Assembly (NCBI GenBank): GCA_050700895.1
Contig: JBOHEE010000411.1
Span: forward strand, 1 to 59,389
Direction of reading: 5' to 3'
Length of the DNA stretch: 59,389 nt
Origin: Nitriliruptorales bacterium
GTDB taxonomy: Bacteria > Actinomycetota > Nitriliruptoria > Nitriliruptorales > JAHWKO01
Shown here piece after piece: positions 3,684 to 46,078 of this stretch. The notes under the pieces were generated by a model, which did no database searches, had not been told where the DNA came from, and saw only the letters and a list, made by a program, of their open reading frames with translations. Position 1 is the stretch's first letter, and each line of letters begins with the position of its first letter. The position numbers and the translations under genes were made by a program.

Positions 3684-5720
3684 CTACGACGTGGCCGCCC
3701 CCTCCTCTGCCGCCTCCTCGTCCTCGGCCGGCACCGGCATGTCGAGGTGGCGGCCGTGCCACTCGAGCACGATCTGGAAGCGGTCGCGGCGATGCTTCGG
3801 CGCCCCCGAGCGCGAGAGCTCGTGACCCTCGTCTGGGAAGCGGACGAGCTCGACCTCGGTTCCGTGCCGCTTCAGCATCATGTAGAACTGTTCCGCCTGC
3901 TCGATCGGGCAGCGCCAGTCGTGCTCGGAGTGGAGGAGGAGCGTCGGGGTCGTGACGCGATGGGCGCGCGAAACCGGGCTCGCCGCCCACAGGAGCTCGA
4001 AGTCCTCAGGCAGCTGGGCGTCGAGGTACATGCGGTCGAAGAAGGCGCCGATGTCCGAGGTGCCCGAAAACGAGACCCACGACAGGAGCCCCCGCTCGAC
4101 GATCGCGGAGCGCCAGCGATCCTCGCGGCCGATGACGTGGGCGGTGGCAAAGCCTCCGTAGGAGCCGCCCATGACCCCCATTCGCTCGGGGTCGAGGCGG
4201 TCGGAGCGGGCAAGCGCGGCGTCGACCGCGCGGCGCAGGTCGTTGAGGTCCGGCGGGTCCTCCTCGTGCCAGACCTTGACCGCGCCACGGGCGAAGTCGC
4301 GCCCGCGGCCGCTCGAACCGCGCGGGTTCGTGGCGAGCACCGCGTACCCGGCCCCGGCGTAGACCTGGAACTCGTCGAAGAAGCCCCAGCCGTACTGCGT
4401 CGCGGGCCCCCCGTGGATGTTGAACAGCAGCGGCACGCGGTCCCCGCCCTCGGGCAGGTACAGCCAGGCGTCGATCTCCTCCCCGCCGGACTCGTAGGTG
4501 AAGTGCTCGCCGGCGACGAAGGCGAGCTCGTCGCGGGCCGTCGCGTTCACCGCCGTGAGGGCACGCTCCTCGCCGTCCTCCCACCAGTGGAGCTCGCCGG
4601 GATCGTCGTTGGCGGTGGCCACGAACGCGAACGCCGAGCCGTCCTCGCGGACCGTCGCGCCCGTGATCGTGCGTCGGCTTCCGCCGGCGAGCTCCTCGAC
4701 CTTGCCGTCAGGGTCGACGGCGACGACCCGGTTCACACCCCGGTCCTCGAGCAGGGTGAGGAAGCGGTCGCCCCTCCACTGCGGTCCGGACGGTCCCGCC
4801 GCGTCGAACGGCAGCGCGTCGCGGTCGAGGTGTCCGGTGAGGTCGGTCAGCGACCCGTCCTCCTCGATGCGGCGGACCGACAGGGGCGCCGGCCAGCCCC
4901 ACCGGTCCGTGAGGCCGGTCACGTGTGCGACGCCGTCGGGGCGGAAGGTGACGTGACCCCAGATTCCGACGTCGGTGAGGGCGGTGACCTCCCGGTCGTC
5001 GAGCGTCACGAGGAAGACCTGGTTGCCGCCATCGACCTCGCGCTCGTCGTGCCGCTCGGAGAGGAAGGCGATCGCGAGGCCGTCAGGACGCCACACCGGC
5101 TCGCTCTCGTCGAAGTCGCCCGGTGTGAGGAGGTCGGGCTCCTCCTGGCCCGACGGGTCCACGAGGCAGAGGTGCTTGCGCCGCTCGTGGATCCAGCCGA
5201 GGTTGTCGCCGCGGTACGGCAGGCGGGTGATGCGCCGCGGCCGCCGCTTGCGCTCGTCCTCCTCGAGGTCGGCGAGCTCCTCGACCCAGCTGTTGCCGAC
5301 GGCCACGAGTCGGCTGCCGTCCGGCGACCACTCCGCTCCCCCCGCGCCGAGGGGGAAGTCCGTCACGATCCGGGCCTCCCCGCCGGCGGCCGGCATCACC
5401 GCGACCTGCGGCTTGCTGTCCTCCTTCTCGCTCTTGCGGACGAACACGAGCCGGCCGCCGTCGGGCGACCACCGCGGAGCGCCGTCGCTCGGACCGTGGG
5501 TGAAGGGACGCGCATCCTCCCCGTCCCAGAGCCAGACCCTCGAGACGTAGCGGTCCTCCTCGAGGTCGACCTCGCGGACGACGAAGGCGACCTGCGCCCC
5601 GTCGGGATGCATCTGCGGCTCGGTGAGCGTGCGCAGCCGCGCGAGATCTCCCGTCCTCACCGATGGCCTCCTGCGGTCGGGGCGGGGGACGCTAGTGGCT
5701 ACGCTCGGCCGCGTGACCAC
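3684..5720 (-). CDS. S9-family serine peptidase (prolyl oligopeptidase / acylaminoacyl-peptidase type) with N-terminal beta-propeller
   Basis: 678-aa ORF. Nucleophile elbow GGSYGG, WSPDG propeller repeats and a C-terminal alpha/beta-hydrolase region. The start is uncertain: a GTG at 5660 would avoid overlap with metG. Confidence 0.85.
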   Translation of the reverse strand: MVTRPSVATSVPRPDRRRPSVRTGDLARLRTLTEPQMHPDGAQVAFVVREVDLEEDRYVSRVWLWDGEDARPFTHGPSDGAPRWSPDGGRLVFVRKSEKEDSKPQVAVMPAAGGEARIVTDFPLGAGGAEWSPDGSRLVAVGNSWVEELADLEEDERKRRPRRITRLPYRGDNLGWIHERRKHLCLVDPSGQEEPDLLTPGDFDESEPVWRPDGLAIAFLSERHDEREVDGGNQVFLVTLDDREVTALTDVGIWGHVTFRPDGVAHVTGLTDRWGWPAPLSVRRIEEDGSLTDLTGHLDRDALPFDAAGPSGPQWRGDRFLTLLEDRGVNRVVAVDPDGKVEELAGGSRRTITGATVREDGSAFAFVATANDDPGELHWWEDGEERALTAVNATARDELAFVAGEHFTYESGGEEIDAWLYLPEGGDRVPLLFNIHGGPATQYGWGFFDEFQVYAGAGYAVLATNPRGSSGRGRDFARGAVKVWHEEDPPDLNDLRRAVDAALARSDRLDPERMGVMGGSYGGFATAHVIGREDRWRSAIVERGLLSWVSFSGTSDIGAFFDRMYLDAQLPEDFELLWAASPVSRAHRVTTPTLLLHSEHDWRCPIEQAEQFYMMLKRHGTEVELVRFPDEGHELSRSGAPKHRRDRFQIVLEWHGRHLDMPVPAEDEEAAEEGAATS

Positions 5721-42657: not shown

Positions 42658-43716
42658 CTAGCCGTTGAACTCCTGGCTCACCATGAGCCCGAACGGACCG
42701 GCGTAGACGCCGATCCCGATGCGTGTGAACTCCCGGTTCAGGATGTTCGCCCGGTGTCCCGGGGAGTCCATGAGGCCTCGATGGGCCCGCTCGGCCGTCG
42801 GGGCCAACGCGAGGTTCTCGCCGGCGACGTCGAAGCGGATCCCCGCGGCGCGCATGCGATCGAAGGGATCGGTGCATCCCGGAGCGTCACTGCCCTCCGT
42901 GCGACACGGGGGGGTGGTGTGAGCGAAGAAGCCCTCGAGGTACATCTGGCGCGAGTAGGCCCGGGCGACGTCTCTGAGCGCTGGGTCGTGCTCCACCGGA
43001 TCCAGTCCGGCCTCGGCCCGGGCCTGGTTGAGGAGGGCGAGGATCTCGTCCTCGGCGGCGGGTGCCACCGAGATCTCGCTCTCGCTCGCCGGCGGGAACG
43101 TGTAGACGGTGCCGTTGGGCTGCTCCGGGGGGGCGTCGACCGGCGGGAGGTTCTCGCAGAGAGAGACCCCGTGGGAGAGCGTGAGGCCGTCGGAGATCTG
43201 CTGGCTGACCCAGAGCAGCGCGGGACGGGCGAGGGTCGCCACGCGCTCGGCTCCGCCGTGGAGGGGGTTCGCGGTGGAGATGAATCCGCGTGCGACCGCG
43301 CTCTCGCAGACCGGCCGGGCCAGCGCCGCCCGCGCGCCGGGAGCGGTGACCCCCAGCAGCAGCACCGCGGTGACGAGGAGCACGCTCCAGGTCGTCGCGA
43401 GGATGCTCCCGCCGACACCGTCGAGGATGAGGGCCGCGTGGGGGAGCCGCCGGACGTGCCCGCCGACGCTTCTCGCTACCACGATCGAGGCGATGAACAC
43501 GATCCCGAACACGCCGATCCCGGTCAGGGCAGCCGTCCACCCCGACGTGACCCCGCGGATCGCCGGCCAGGTGACCGTCGCCACCACGATGGCCAGGATC
43601 AAGCCGAGGAGCTCGACCCCCTCCACGACGAGACCACGACGCCACCCCCGGTAGGCGTAGACCGCCACGGAGGCGAGCAGCAGAAGGCTCAGGACCACGG
43701 TGGAGAATGATGCCAC
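42658..43716 (-). CDS. CvpA-like membrane domain fused to CAP/SCP (YkwD-like) extracellular domain
   Basis: Four N-terminal TM helices. The C-terminal region EILALLNQARAEAGLDPVEHDPALRDVARAYSRQM...GENLA...HRGLMDSPGHRANIL...IGIGV is a typical CAP-domain signature. Confidence 0.7.
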   Translation of the reverse strand: MASFSTVVLSLLLLASVAVYAYRGWRRGLVVEGVELLGLILAIVVATVTWPAIRGVTSGWTAALTGIGVFGIVFIASIVVARSVGGHVRRLPHAALILDGVGGSILATTWSVLLVTAVLLLGVTAPGARAALARPVCESAVARGFISTANPLHGGAERVATLARPALLWVSQQISDGLTLSHGVSLCENLPPVDAPPEQPNGTVYTFPPASESEISVAPAAEDEILALLNQARAEAGLDPVEHDPALRDVARAYSRQMYLEGFFAHTTPPCRTEGSDAPGCTDPFDRMRAAGIRFDVAGENLALAPTAERAHRGLMDSPGHRANILNREFTRIGIGVYAGPFGLMVSQEFNG

Positions 43717-43734: not shown

Positions 43735-44010
43735 TCAGCCACCGGCGACCGCCGGGACGATGGACACGACGTCCCCGTCGCCGACGGTCGTGTCGAGCCC
43801 GTCCTGGTAGCGGACGTCCTCGTCGCGAACGAAGACGTTGACGAACCGGCGCAGCTCGCCGTCCTCGTCGAGGAGGCGCTCGGTGATGTCCGGATGCGCC
43901 CGGGCCAGCTTCGCGATCACCTCCCGGACGTCGGCGCCCTCCACCTCGACGGTGGCAGCGCCGCCGGTGTGCTTGCGGAGTGGGCTCGGGATGCGGACGG
44001 TCGCGGTCAT
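43735..44010 (-). CDS. MoaD/ThiS-family sulfur-carrier protein ending in Gly-Gly (CysO/MetO-like)
   Basis: 91 aa. MTATVRIPSPLRKHTGGAATVEVEG...FVNVFVRDEDVRY...GDGDVVSIVPAVAGG*. ATG 44010 overlaps the upstream stop as ATGA. The rest of the 656-aa track ORF is artefact. Confidence 0.85.
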   Translation of the reverse strand: MTATVRIPSPLRKHTGGAATVEVEGADVREVIAKLARAHPDITERLLDEDGELRRFVNVFVRDEDVRYQDGLDTTVGDGDVVSIVPAVAGG

Positions 44011-45284
44011 GACTGTTCTCCTGCGAATGTGAGCTGCTCCTCGAACGCCGTCAACGACGGTTCGATGGTGAACGTGGGGCCGACCCGCCCGCTGAGCGCG
44101 TCGAGGGTCTTCAGCCCGTGCCCGGTGACGAACGCGACCACCCGCTCGTCGCGCCCGATGACCCCCTCGCGGGCGAGCTTCGCGAGCGTGCCGATCGTGA
44201 CGCCGCCGGCGGTCTCGGCGAACAGGCCCTCGGTCTCGGCGAGCAGGCGGATCGCCGAGACGATCTCCTCGTCGGTCACCGCTGCGATGGCGCCGCCGGC
44301 CTCCCGCACGGCTCGGACCGCGTAGGTCCCGTCCGCCGGATCGCCGATCGCCAGGGACCGGGCGATCGTGTCCGGCTTCACCGGCCGGATGCGGTCGGTC
44401 CCCTCCGCGAACGCGGTGGCGACCGGGCTGCAGCCAGCCGCCTGGGCGCCGGAGATGCGCACGTCGTGCGGCGCGACGAGGTCGTGCGCGACGAGCTCCC
44501 CGAGCGACTTGTGGACCTTGACGAGCTGGGCGCCGGACGCGATCGGCACGACGATGTGGTCGGGGAGCTCCCAACCGAGCTGTTCGGCCACCTCGAAGCC
44601 GAGCGTCTTCGAGCCTTCGGCGTAGTAGGCACGGAGGTTCACGTTCACGAACCCCCAGCCGCGGTCGTCGGCGATCTCGGCGCAGAGGCGGTTGACGTCG
44701 TCGTAGCTGCCCTTCACGGCCACGACCGTGGCCCCGTACACCGCCGACGTGGCGATCTTCGCCTGCTCGAGGTCGTGCGGGATGACGACGTAGGCGGGCA
44801 TCCCCGCCTTCGCGGCACCCGCCGCGACCGCGTTCGCGAGGTTGCCGGTCGAGGCGCAGGCGAGCGTCGTGATGCCGAGCGACTGCGCGGCGTTGAGCGC
44901 CACCGCGACCACACGGTCCTTGAACGAGCCCGAGGGGTTGCGCGTGTCGTCCTTGAGCCAGAGCTCGCCGAGCCCGAGCTGCTCGGCGAGCCGGGGGGCG
45001 GGGACGAGCGGCGTGAAGCCGGCGCCGAGATCGGCAGGGACGGGCTGCTCCTCGAGGATCGGCAGGAGCGGGGCGTAGCGCCAAAGGTTCCGCGGGCCGG
45101 CCTCGATCGCGGCACGGTCGACCGTCCGGTCGTCGCGGTAGGCGACCTCCAGCGGCCCGAAGCACTCGCCGCAGACGTGTACGGGTCCGAGCTCCTCGGG
45201 TGTGCCGCACTCGCGGCAGCGGAGCCCGTCGATGGTTGGGCTGAGCGTGTCCAGGGCTGACTCCTGTCCTGTCGTGGAGGACAC
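44007..45284 (-). CDS. PLP-dependent threonine-synthase-family enzyme with N-terminal zinc ribbon (MetM-like candidate)
   Basis: LRCRECGTPEELGPVHVCGECFGPLEV, then PLP lysine motif NPSGSFKDRVV and GNLANAV. GTG 45284 is chosen downstream of the riboswitch terminator. Confidence 0.85.
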   Translation of the reverse strand: MSSTTGQESALDTLSPTIDGLRCRECGTPEELGPVHVCGECFGPLEVAYRDDRTVDRAAIEAGPRNLWRYAPLLPILEEQPVPADLGAGFTPLVPAPRLAEQLGLGELWLKDDTRNPSGSFKDRVVAVALNAAQSLGITTLACASTGNLANAVAAGAAKAGMPAYVVIPHDLEQAKIATSAVYGATVVAVKGSYDDVNRLCAEIADDRGWGFVNVNLRAYYAEGSKTLGFEVAEQLGWELPDHIVVPIASGAQLVKVHKSLGELVAHDLVAPHDVRISGAQAAGCSPVATAFAEGTDRIRPVKPDTIARSLAIGDPADGTYAVRAVREAGGAIAAVTDEEIVSAIRLLAETEGLFAETAGGVTIGTLAKLAREGVIGRDERVVAFVTGHGLKTLDALSGRVGPTFTIEPSLTAFEEQLTFAGEQS

Positions 45285-45325
45285 GGGCGACCCGGCACCC
45301 TCCCTGTCGGACAGGTCCCGGCACC

Positions 45326-45352
45326 AGAACGGGCCTCCCGCCTGGGAGGCCC
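45326..45352 (-). terminator. Riboswitch expression-platform terminator hairpin
   Basis: The minus strand reads GGGCCUCCC-AGGC-GGGAGGCCC followed by GUUCUGGU. It lies between the SAM-I aptamer and the start codon. Confidence 0.65.
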
Positions 45353-45378
45353 GCTGAGTTGACGTCGCGACACGCCCG

Positions 45379-45489
45379 CTCATCGTCTCCCGCTGGCGCG
45401 GAAGCCGGGTTTGGCACCGTCCCCGTCGCGTCCACGGGCGGTTGCCGAGGCTTCGTCGGGCCCGAGCCCTCCACCTCTCCGGATGAGTT
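45379..45489 (-). ncRNA. SAM-I (S-box) riboswitch aptamer
   Basis: The minus strand reads AACUCAUCCGGAGAGGUGGAGGGCUCGGGCCCGACGAAGCCUCGGCAACCGCCCGUGGACGCGACGGGGACGGUGCCAAACCCGGCUUCCGCGCCAGCGGGAGACGAUGAG. P1 is CUCAUC/GAUGAG. The conserved blocks GAGGG..GGCCCGA.GA.GC....GCAACC and GGUGCCAA..CC.GC are all present. Confidence 0.9.
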
Positions 45490-45637: not shown

Positions 45638-46078
45638 ATGGCGAGCAGAGCCAAGGTGCTGGTCGTCGACGACGAGCCCGACGTCCTCCTTCTCTGCCGC
45701 GTCAACCTCGAGTTCGAGGGCTACGAGGTCTTGGAGGCCGGCGACGGCGAAGAGGCGATGGAGAAGGTCCACGATCAGGGGCCCGACGTCGTCCTCCTCG
45801 ACGTGATGATGCCGAAGATGGACGGCTGGCAGGTCCTCGCGGCATTGAAGGGCGACCACCGCACGGCCGACATCCCGGTCGTTATGCTGACCGCGAAGGT
45901 CCAGGACCAGGACCAGATCCGCGGCTGGTCGGGCGGCGCCGCGGACTACATCACCAAGCCCTTCTCGCCGCTGTCGCTGTCGCTGGTGCTCGAGAACGTC
46001 CTGAACAACGACCCCGAGGAGGAGGAGCGGCGCCGCCGCGCCATCCTCGAGAAGCTCCAGCTGCTCCAGAAAGGCTAG
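45638..46078 (+). CDS. Single-domain (CheY-like) response regulator
   Basis: KVLVVDDEPDV...PDVVLLDVMMPKMDGW...PVVMLTAK...ADYITKPF carries the full receiver acidic pocket, phospho-Asp, Thr and Lys. There is no output domain. Confidence 0.88.
   Translation: MASRAKVLVVDDEPDVLLLCRVNLEFEGYEVLEAGDGEEAMEKVHDQGPDVVLLDVMMPKMDGWQVLAALKGDHRTADIPVVMLTAKVQDQDQIRGWSGGAADYITKPFSPLSLSLVLENVLNNDPEEEERRRRAILEKLQLLQKG

What the first reader, a model, noticed from the sequence alone, without database searches (positions are those of the whole stretch)
43735..45489. SAM-I riboswitch controls a zinc-ribbon threonine-synthase homologue plus a GG-terminal MoaD/ThiS-like carrier: probable sulfur-carrier-dependent homocysteine synthesis
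- **Riboswitch.** A textbook S-box aptamer lies at 45379..45489 on the minus strand. It is followed by a GC hairpin terminator (45326..45352), then the ThrC-family gene (44007..45284).
- **Coupled carrier.** A 91-aa ubiquitin-fold protein ending in AGG (43735..44010) is translationally coupled to it through an ATGA overlap.
- **Argument.** SAM control makes no sense for threonine synthesis, but it fits methionine synthesis. A ThrC-like PLP enzyme using O-phosphohomoserine and a protein thiocarboxylate has been described in Streptomyces as MetM/MetO, as far as I recall. Finding the pair behind a SAM-I switch supports that role here.
- **Possible third gene.** The CvpA-CAP membrane protein starts 18 nt after the carrier gene and may be co-transcribed. 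That pairing would be unexpected.
Basis: partly seen in the sequence, partly recalled or inferred. Interest (0 to 1): 0.6.

Follow-up and report, generated by a model that had tools for sequence, protein, structure and literature searches.

The report
SAM-controlled MetM/MetO homocysteine synthase operon
A SAM-sensing RNA switch controls a gene labelled "threonine synthase" and a small sulfur-carrier protein that together most likely make the methionine precursor homocysteine; this route was published for Streptomyces in 2024, so the locus is a real but ordinary new example.

Summary

- **Riboswitch.** Rfam's SAM-I model hits 45377..45489 (-) at 62.5 bits (threshold 44.4). It is the only SAM-I element in the genome.
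- **Genes.** A 425-aa ThrC-family enzyme follows. A 91-aa CysO-type carrier ending AVAGG overlaps its stop codon (ATGA).
- **Not the housekeeping ThrC.** The canonical ThrC sits in argS-lysA-hom-thrC-thrB-rho on another contig. In a tree, the window enzyme falls in a separate clade (support 100/99).
- **Conserved context.** In that clade, 64 of 76 loci keep the carrier gene downstream. 26 of 34 loci have a SAM-I riboswitch upstream, and one has a T-box whose specifier reads as methionine.
- **Genome.** It has ThrB, MetH, one MoeZ, and a separate mec-cysO-cysM operon. It has no MetX or MetA, and none of the 9 genomes of its family has MetX.

This matches the MetM/MetO O-phosphohomoserine route of Streptomyces albulus (Hasebe 2024), whose metM is also reported to have a SAM riboswitch.

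Two points stay open:
- How the switch is read out. The hairpin has a U-poor tail and no antiterminator is predicted.
- Why a CvpA-CAP gene follows the carrier. That synteny holds in only 3 of 9 genomes of the family.

The parts
45377..45489 (-). SAM-I (S-box) riboswitch aptamer
   Evidence: RF00162 at 62.5 bits against a gathering score of 44.4, full-length model match. It is the only RF00162 hit in the whole genome.
45328..45355 (-). GC-rich stem-loop (AGCGGGCCUCCC-AGGC-GGGAGGCCCGUU) downstream of the aptamer. It is the presumed expression platform; a terminator role is inferred, not shown.
   Evidence: dG -25.9 kcal/mol. Pair probability is 1.0 with or without P1. The consensus terminator scan does not call it. 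Analogous CCUCCC/GGGAGG hairpins occur in L015, L046 and L059.
45298..45305 (-). Shine-Dalgarno-like AGGGAGGG, ending 13 nt before the GTG start of the enzyme gene
   Evidence: Read from the sequence. The leader frame upstream has GC2 of 0.73, which is not coding-like.
44007..45284 (-). MetM-like homocysteine synthase candidate: a ThrC-family PLP enzyme with an N-terminal four-Cys motif, 425 aa
   Evidence: PALP 247 bits and TIGR00260 263 bits. It lies in a clade separate from canonical ThrC, support 100/99. 24 signature columns separate the two clades.
43735..44010 (-). MetO-like sulfur-carrier protein: 91 aa, ThiS/MoaD/CysO fold, C-terminus AVAGG. Its start overlaps the enzyme's stop codon (ATGA).
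   Evidence: ThiS Pfam 55 bits. About 50% identical to M. tuberculosis CysO (3dwg_C); the best PDB hit is a ThiS/MoaD-family chain (4n6e_B). The same gene lies downstream in 64 of 76 related loci.
42658..43716 (-). CvpA (Colicin_V) membrane domain fused to a CAP/YkwD domain. It is a possible third cistron, starting 18 nt after the carrier gene; its membership of the system is doubtful.
   Evidence: Pfam CAP 55 bits and Colicin_V 34 bits. It is syntenic in G014 and G016 only and absent from 80 loci of other families.

Best explanation
The locus is a SAM-repressed metM-metO operon.

**Proposed pathway (inferred from gene content and from the published Streptomyces albulus system):**
1. Homoserine dehydrogenase and homoserine kinase (ThrB), both encoded elsewhere in the genome, make O-phospho-L-homoserine.
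2. The genome's only ThiF-family enzyme is of the MoeZ type (ThiF plus rhodanese domains). It adenylates the C-terminal Gly-Gly of the 91-aa carrier and converts it to a thiocarboxylate.
3. The ThrC-like PLP enzyme (MetM) replaces the gamma-phosphate of O-phosphohomoserine with that sulfur, giving homocysteine. The reaction may pass through a carrier-homocysteine adduct.
4. MetH methylates homocysteine to methionine.
5. When SAM is plentiful it binds the leader aptamer and lowers expression of the operon.

**Shown here by computation:**
- the aptamer;
- the gene pair and its conservation;
- the paralogy with canonical ThrC;
- the genomic absence of MetX and MetA;
- the presence of ThrB, MoeZ and MetH.

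**Inferred:** the chemistry, the use of this particular carrier, the direction of regulation, and the read-out mechanism (premature termination at the GC hairpin or some other mechanism).
For: **Riboswitch**
- RF00162 at 62.5 bits, unique in the genome.

**Paralogy with ThrC**
- The genome has a canonical ThrC inside argS-lysA-hom-thrC-thrB-rho on contig C285. It scores 442 bits against M. tuberculosis ThrC (2d1f); the window protein scores 156 bits.
- All 10 other genomes examined also carry one copy of each type.
- The maximum-likelihood tree splits 25 MetM-like proteins from 16 ThrC, including 5 ThrC with solved structures, at support 100/99.
- 24 columns are fixed differently in the two clades.

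**Conserved context**
- A carrier gene lies downstream in 64 of 76 loci, at a median gap of 8 nt.
- SAM-I lies directly upstream in 26 of 34 loci tested, including 21 of 23 Actinomycetota and the cultured Nonomuraea gerenzanensis.
- One locus instead has a T-box whose specifier most likely reads AUG and whose UGGU bulge fits tRNA-Met.

**Pathway logic in this genome**
- No MetX and no MetA/HTS.
- MetX is absent from all 9 genomes of the family, and all 9 have the MetM-like gene.
- ThrB at 177 bits and Hom at 563 bits. MetH at 1333 bits.
- One MoeZ-type ThiF-rhodanese protein.
- A separate mec-cysO-cysM operon covers cysteine synthesis, so the window's carrier is a dedicated paralogue, 62% identical to that CysO.

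**Literature**
- MetM, MetO, MoeZ and Mec are listed with experimental evidence in S. albulus. The same source notes that MetM is often misannotated as threonine synthase (PMC13759103 and its preprint).
- S. albulus metM has an upstream SAM riboswitch (PMC12172450).
Against: - **No direct comparison with the characterised proteins.** The S. albulus sequences (UniProt A0A059WBP2 and A0A059W7F4) and the Hasebe paper were not available, so orthology to the tested enzyme is indirect. It rests on the shared architecture, the shared riboswitch, and a cyanobacterial clade member. A cyanobacterial homologue is reported as 51.6% identical to MetM.
- **Incomplete genome.** The genome is a 93%-complete MAG in 536 contigs, so absence of MetX or MetA is not absolute.
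- **Unassigned PLP enzymes.** Two Cys/Met-family PLP enzymes, on contigs C345 and C446, score below every curated cut-off. They could provide another route to homocysteine.
- **Expression platform not understood.** The hairpin is predicted to form with or without P1, and its tail is U-poor.
- **Carrier missing at some loci.** 12 of 76 related loci, including Frankia, have no carrier gene in the flanks that were fetched.
- **Contrary experimental report.** The Microcystis homologue behaved mainly as a threonine deaminase in one study.
Confidence: 0.85

Rival explanations
1. The enzyme is an O-phosphohomoserine sulfhydrylase that uses free sulfide, or another small thiol, directly. The adjacent carrier would be dispensable or serve another acceptor. 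The pathway would still make homocysteine under SAM control, but not through a protein thiocarboxylate.
For: - 12 of 76 related loci have no carrier gene in the flanks that were fetched.
- The genome has other carriers (CysO on C229 and a sulfite reductase-ThiS fusion on C305), which shows that carriers can be encoded elsewhere.
- PMC12172450 tested a homologue with Na2S.
Against: - The carrier gene is translationally coupled to the enzyme gene here (ATGA overlap).
- It is retained in 64 of 76 loci across several phyla.
- The published S. albulus system is listed as dependent on MetO-thiocarboxylate.
Confidence: 0.07
2. The pair makes a different sulfur compound under SAM control, with homocysteine made by other means. 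Candidates are cysteine from O-phosphoserine (as CysM/CysO does), cystathionine, or a thio-metabolite.
For: - The carrier's closest named relative with a solved structure is M. tuberculosis CysO, which serves cysteine synthesis; the top hit, 4n6e_B, is named only as a ThiS/MoaD-family protein.
- Two unassigned Cys/Met-family PLP enzymes exist in the genome.
Against: - A complete mec-cysO-cysM operon, whose CysM scores 337 bits against M. tuberculosis CysM, already covers cysteine synthesis.
- Control by SAM, and in one relative by a T-box read as Met-specific, points to methionine.
- No homoserine acyltransferase is present to feed MetY- or MetB-type enzymes.
Confidence: 0.05
3. It is simply a second threonine synthase, and its neighbours and leader are coincidental.
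For: - TIGR00260 (thrC) scores 263 bits, above its cut-off of 167.
- Every source that names a homologue calls it threonine synthase.
Against: - The canonical ThrC is present in the hom-thrC-thrB cluster.
- The clade is separated from ThrC at support 100/99.
- 24 columns are fixed differently, including positions recalled from memory as phosphate-site residues of Thermus ThrC.
- The carrier and the SAM-I element are conserved across phyla.
Confidence: 0.03

Closest known systems
MetM/MetO (with MoeZ and Mec) route from O-phospho-L-homoserine to homocysteine in Streptomyces albulus (Hasebe, Adachi, Maruyama, Hamano 2024, Appl Environ Microbiol 90:e01247-24), as cited in PMC13759103 and PMC12172450
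   Same: - A ThrC-homologous enzyme next to a ThiS/MoaD-type carrier.
- A MoeZ-type activator encoded in the genome.
- A SAM riboswitch upstream of metM.
- The enzyme is annotated as threonine synthase.
   Different: - The host is an uncultured MAG whose closest named homologues come from Nitriliruptorales, not Streptomyces.
- The carrier ends exactly at Gly-Gly, so the Mec-dependent maturation listed for S. albulus MetO should not be needed. A Mec gene exists, but it sits beside cysO-cysM.
- The route appears to be the only one to homocysteine here, since no MetX or MetA was found.
- Sequence identity to the S. albulus proteins could not be measured.
CysM/CysO/Mec/MoeZ thiocarboxylate-dependent cysteine synthesis of Mycobacterium tuberculosis (PDB 3dwg, 3dki)
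   Same: - A carrier of the same family, about 50% identical.
- The same logic: a PLP enzyme attacks an O-phospho amino acid with a protein thiocarboxylate activated by MoeZ.
   Different: - The enzyme here has the ThrC fold-type II subfamily, not the CysK/CysM subfamily.
- The presumed substrate is O-phosphohomoserine, not O-phosphoserine.
- Control is by SAM.
- The genome carries its own separate mec-cysO-cysM operon on contig C229.
Canonical threonine synthase ThrC (for example M. tuberculosis 2d1f, T. thermophilus 1uim, B. subtilis 6cgq)
   Same: - PLP fold and the SFKDR lysine motif.
- O-phosphohomoserine as the probable substrate.
- 34-38% identity.
   Different: - An extra N-terminal four-Cys motif.
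- 24 clade-specific substitutions.
- A separate clade in the tree.
- The gene sits behind a SAM riboswitch with a sulfur carrier rather than in the hom-thrC-thrB cluster.
HcyS/HcyF/HcyD/MetY protein-thiocarboxylate methionine pathway of Wolinella succinogenes (Krishnamoorthy and Begley; recalled from memory, not checked here)
   Same: A ThiS-like carrier thiocarboxylate is the sulfur donor for homocysteine.
   Different: That system uses a MetY-type O-acetylhomoserine sulfhydrylase and O-acetylhomoserine, not a ThrC-type enzyme and O-phosphohomoserine.

Membership tests
MetM/MetO homocysteine synthesis (S. albulus type) | The ThrC-family PLP enzyme is a paralogue distinct from the housekeeping threonine synthase. 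| tested here: met
   A canonical ThrC lies in hom-thrC-thrB on C285. The tree splits the two clades at support 100/99.
MetM/MetO homocysteine synthesis (S. albulus type) | An adjacent ThiS/MoaD-type sulfur carrier with a C-terminal Gly-Gly. | tested here: met
   A 91-aa ThiS-family protein ending AVAGG overlaps the enzyme gene by ATGA. The arrangement is conserved in 64 of 76 related loci.
MetM/MetO homocysteine synthesis (S. albulus type) | A MoeZ-type adenylyltransferase/sulfurtransferase is available to thiocarboxylate the carrier. | tested here: met
   The single ThiF-family gene (C49) has a C-terminal rhodanese domain. Its best NCBIfam model is MoeZ, at 532 bits, which is below the equivalog cut-off of 647. 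That it acts on this carrier is inferred.
MetM/MetO homocysteine synthesis (S. albulus type) | A supply of O-phospho-L-homoserine (homoserine kinase). | tested here: met
   ThrB scores 176.9 bits on TIGR00191 (cut-off 168.25), and Hom scores 563 bits.
MetM/MetO homocysteine synthesis (S. albulus type) | A SAM riboswitch upstream of metM, as reported for S. albulus. | tested here: met
   RF00162 at 62.5 bits. The literature statement is in PMC12172450.
MetM/MetO homocysteine synthesis (S. albulus type) | Mec (JAMM) hydrolase for maturation of the carrier. | tested here: inconclusive
   A Prok-JAB gene exists, but it sits next to cysO-cysM on C229. The window's carrier already ends in GG, so the step may be unnecessary.
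MetM/MetO homocysteine synthesis (S. albulus type) | Sequence orthology to the characterised MetM (A0A059WBP2) and MetO (A0A059W7F4). | not testable with these tools
   The sequences and the primary paper were not retrievable. A second protein search returned no Streptomyces entry among its 120 listed hits. The links that remain are indirect.
MetM/MetO homocysteine synthesis (S. albulus type) | Enzymatic formation of homocysteine from O-phosphohomoserine and the carrier thiocarboxylate. | not testable with these tools
   This needs biochemistry.
SAM-I riboswitch (RF00162) | The four-helix aptamer with conserved core scores above Rfam's gathering threshold. | tested here: met
   62.5 bits against 44.4, with model positions 1-108 matched.
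SAM-I riboswitch (RF00162) | An expression platform with mutually exclusive terminator and antiterminator, or sequestration of the Shine-Dalgarno sequence. | tested here: inconclusive
   A hairpin is present and conserved in near relatives. No antiterminator is predicted and the tail is U-poor.
Housekeeping threonine synthase (ThrC) | The protein clusters with experimentally characterised ThrC and is the genome's ThrC in the hom-thrC-thrB context. | tested here: not met
   The window protein scores 156 bits against M. tuberculosis ThrC, whereas the C285 copy scores 442 bits.

The most novel reading that the evidence does not exclude
In a sub-clade of this family (three genera), the SAM-controlled metM-metO operon may have recruited a CvpA-membrane/CAP-domain protein as a co-transcribed third cistron. 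Expression of an envelope or secreted protein would then be tied to methionine/SAM status, perhaps for export or handling of a sulfur compound. The switch would also act through a U-poor hairpin with no recognisable antiterminator.
Probability: 0.1. Interest if true: 0.4.

Novelty: new member of a known kind. Interest (0 to 1): 0.18.

Why it matters
The practical value is in annotation and metabolic reconstruction.

- **Misannotation.** Every source name seen for this clade is "threonine synthase", and NCBIfam has no model for it.
- **False auxotrophy calls.** Genomes like this one, and the other 8 of its family, would be scored as methionine auxotrophs because they lack MetX (none of the 9 genomes has it); MetA is also absent from this genome.
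- **Tools for reannotation.** The clade-specific signature columns and the conserved context of SAM-I or a Met-type T-box, the enzyme and the GG-carrier give a simple rule for reannotation.

It does not change what is known about the pathway itself.

Tried and rejected
- **Primary paper.** I tried to read Hasebe et al. 2024 by PMC id and by DOI. It is not held.
- **Streptomyces anchor sequence.**
  - A second protein search, using the Frankia torreyi orthologue as query, listed only Frankia, Mycobacteriales and MAG entries among its top 120 hits.
  - A tblastn search of the plasmid collection gave only Nonomuraea gerenzanensis, at 56% identity. That record is 11.85 Mb long and filed as a plasmid. 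It did turn out to carry SAM-I and a carrier gene.
- **Alternative start codon.** An in-frame ATG lies at 45383 inside the 3' strand of P1. I rejected it as the start for two reasons. The 33-codon extension has a non-coding GC pattern (GC2 of 0.73). In the nearest relative, L015, the equivalent frame runs into a stop codon.
- **Antiterminator.** I looked for one with constrained and suboptimal folding and found none. The unconstrained fold of the whole leader pairs aptamer strands with the start region. I do not trust that result for a 221-nt RNA of about 70% GC.
- **CvpA-CAP as part of the system.** I considered this. The gene is absent next to metM-metO in 80 loci of other families and is syntenic in only 2 of the 8 other genomes of the family.
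- **MetB-like gene on C285 as a forward route to homocysteine.** I considered this. The gene sits next to cystathionine beta-synthase, as in M. tuberculosis, so I read it as reverse transsulfuration.
Full report
**1. The observation**

- **Aptamer.** Rfam's SAM-I model (RF00162) matches 45377..45489 on the minus strand over its whole length. The score is 62.5 bits against a gathering score of 44.4. It is the only such element in the 3.13-Mb genome.
- **Hairpin.** A 12-bp GC hairpin follows at about 45328..45355, with dG -25.9 kcal/mol.
- **Start of the enzyme gene.** An AGGGAGGG Shine-Dalgarno-like sequence ends 13 nt before a GTG at 45284.
- **Enzyme.** The 425-aa product is a fold-type II PLP enzyme of the ThrC family (PALP 247 bits, TIGR00260 263 bits). 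It has an N-terminal CxxC...CxxC motif that is invariant in 15 homologues.
- **Carrier.** The enzyme's stop codon overlaps (ATGA) the start of a 91-aa ThiS-family protein ending PAVAGG.
- **Third gene.** A CvpA-CAP membrane protein starts 18 nt further on.
- **Coding strand.** GC by codon position confirms that the minus-strand frames are the real genes.

**2. The enzyme is not the housekeeping threonine synthase**

- The genome has three ThrC-family genes. One lies in the classical actinobacterial cluster argS-lysA-hom-thrC-thrB-rho on contig C285.
- That copy scores 442 bits against M. tuberculosis ThrC (PDB 2d1f). The window protein scores 156 bits.
- Ten other genomes that carry an orthologue of the window gene each also have a canonical ThrC.
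- A maximum-likelihood tree separates 25 window-type proteins from 16 ThrC, among them five with solved structures, at support 100/99.
- Between 80 window-type and 14 canonical sequences, 24 alignment columns are fixed differently. They include Thermus ThrC positions T88, S155, N157, R160 and N188.
- From memory, I believe several of those positions line the phosphate site that steers ThrC towards threonine. I did not check that here.

**3. The carrier**

- Its closest relatives with solved structures are a ThiS/MoaD-family chain (4n6e_B), which I recall as Amycolatopsis CysO, and M. tuberculosis CysO (3dwg_C). It is about 50% identical to the latter. It is therefore a CysO-type carrier, not a MoaD or ThiS of cofactor synthesis.
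- The genome has a second, 62%-identical carrier on contig C229. That one sits in a mec(JAMM)-cysO-cysM operon. Its CysM matches M. tuberculosis O-phosphoserine sulfhydrylase at 337 bits.
- Cysteine synthesis therefore has its own carrier, and the window's carrier is a dedicated paralogue.
- One MoeZ-type ThiF-rhodanese protein is the only E1-like enzyme found in the genome.

**4. Conservation of the context**

- **Distribution.** Orthologues at 55-75% identity are very numerous and spread across phyla: Actinomycetota, Chloroflexota, Cyanobacteriota, Verrucomicrobiota, Nitrospirota and Acidobacteriota.
- **Carrier.** 64 of the 76 loci with enough downstream sequence have the carrier gene on the same strand, at a median gap of 8 nt.
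- **SAM-I.** 26 of 34 loci scanned with Rfam have a SAM-I riboswitch directly upstream. This includes 21 of 23 Actinomycetota and the cultured Nonomuraea gerenzanensis.
- **T-box.** One actinobacterial locus (L060) has a T-box leader instead. Its specifier loop reads GAA-C-AUG-A, and its bulge is UGGU, which pairs with an A73 discriminator.
- **How sure the T-box reading is.** I read it as methionine-specific. The codon register rests on my memory of T-box anatomy; CAU (His) is the alternative register, and the A73-type bulge argues against it.
- **What this adds.** It is an independent regulatory link between this clade and methionine.

**5. Pathway logic in this genome**

- Present: homoserine dehydrogenase and ThrB, and MetH.
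- Absent: MetX and MetA/HTS.
- This is probably not an assembly gap. None of the 9 genomes of the family has MetX, and all 9 have the window-type gene.
- Across the order the two genes are not strictly exclusive. Three genomes have both.
- A MetB-like gene sits beside cystathionine beta-synthase and probably serves reverse transsulfuration.
- Two further Cys/Met-family PLP enzymes remain unassigned.

**6. Comparison with the literature**

- GapMind 2026 lists four proteins as experimentally supported steps in Streptomyces albulus, citing Hasebe et al. 2024. [quoted passage not shown] It also notes that MetM is often misannotated as threonine synthase.
- PMC12172450 states that S. albulus metM has an upstream SAM riboswitch and that homologues occur in cyanobacteria.
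- The window therefore reproduces the published architecture, including its regulation.
- I could not obtain the S. albulus sequences or the primary paper. Orthology to the characterised enzyme is therefore indirect.
- Earlier notes of this scan describe the same system in many other genomes. They agree with this reading but are not independent evidence.

**7. What remains open**

*Read-out of the switch*
- The hairpin has a U-poor tail (GUUCUGGUG) and fails a simple terminator scan.
- It is predicted to form whether or not P1 forms, and I found no antiterminator.
- Near relatives (L015, L046, L059) have analogous CCUCCC/GGGAGG hairpins. The tail in L015 is more U-rich.
- In Acidimicrobiia and Frankia the Shine-Dalgarno sequence lies inside the 3' strand of P1, which implies translational control there.

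*The CvpA-CAP gene*
- It is close enough (18 nt) to be co-transcribed.
- Full-length orthologues follow metM-metO in only two other genomes of the family and in none of 80 loci elsewhere.
- I treat it as a lineage-specific neighbour of unknown function.

**8. Verdict**

- The locus is a new member of a system described in 2024, so its interest is low.
- Its main use is to correct annotation and auxotrophy predictions.

Noticed in passing
L060:3667-3921 (Actinobacteria bacterium SURF_47), directly upstream of its metM-like gene at about 4001: This locus has a T-box leader (RF00230, 102 bits) in place of a SAM riboswitch. The specifier loop reads GAA-C-AUG-A and the bulge is UGGU, which I read as tRNA-Met specific. 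The same enzyme clade would then be under two different methionine-related RNA controls.
   Followed up: partly
L064:5264-5506, L076:1732-1974, L078:5260-5502, L088:4447-4689 (Chloroflexota loci); L081 has a similar ORF by C-terminal sequence: An 80-aa NIL-domain protein follows metM in these loci, and in L064 and L078 it was seen to lie between metM and metO (L064: PF09383, 63 bits). No such gene is in the window's operon. Earlier notes of this scan report the same extra gene.
   Followed up: partly
own genome, contig C305:865-2802 (+): A ferredoxin-type sulfite reductase (NIR_SIR) carries a C-terminal ThiS domain ending LPALAGG and is followed by a gene that looks like a PAPS/APS reductase (not scanned). 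The fusion was already noted for some actinobacteria by Iyer, Burroughs and Aravind 2006 (PMC1779556).
   Followed up: partly
own genome, contig C229:10848-12645 (-): This is a mec(JAMM)-cysO-cysM operon of the M. tuberculosis type. The cysO frame continues 26 aa past AVAGG (CGPPTGSGR...) and overlaps the start of cysM. That could be a long tail removed by Mec, or a frame error in the MAG.
   Followed up: partly
own genome, contig C215:2242-3600 (+): A third ThrC-family paralogue matches NCBIfam PRK08197 at 638 bits and has a degenerate N-terminal Cys motif (LQCSLTGERY). It lies next to a gene that looks like an adenosine deaminase (not scanned). It has no carrier and no riboswitch, and its role is unknown.
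   Followed up: no
own genome, contigs C345:2753-3955 (+) and C446:2401-3567 (-): Two Cys/Met-metabolism PLP enzymes score below every curated NCBIfam cut-off (best 324 and 309 bits). Their substrates are unknown in a genome without MetX or MetA.
   Followed up: no
window 45638..46078 (+): A single-domain, CheY-like response regulator is transcribed divergently from the riboswitch leader. Close homologues (78-79% identical) lie upstream on the opposite strand in L046 and L040; weaker ones (36-40%) lie downstream on the same strand in L036 and L031.
   Followed up: no
L070 (cyanobacterial endosymbiont of Epithemia turgida), metM-like gene at 3947-5308: The cyanobacterial orthologue has lost three of the four N-terminal cysteines (FTHLVSKEGG...HVCEETF) and has no SAM riboswitch, but it keeps a PAVAGG carrier about 100 nt downstream.
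   Followed up: no
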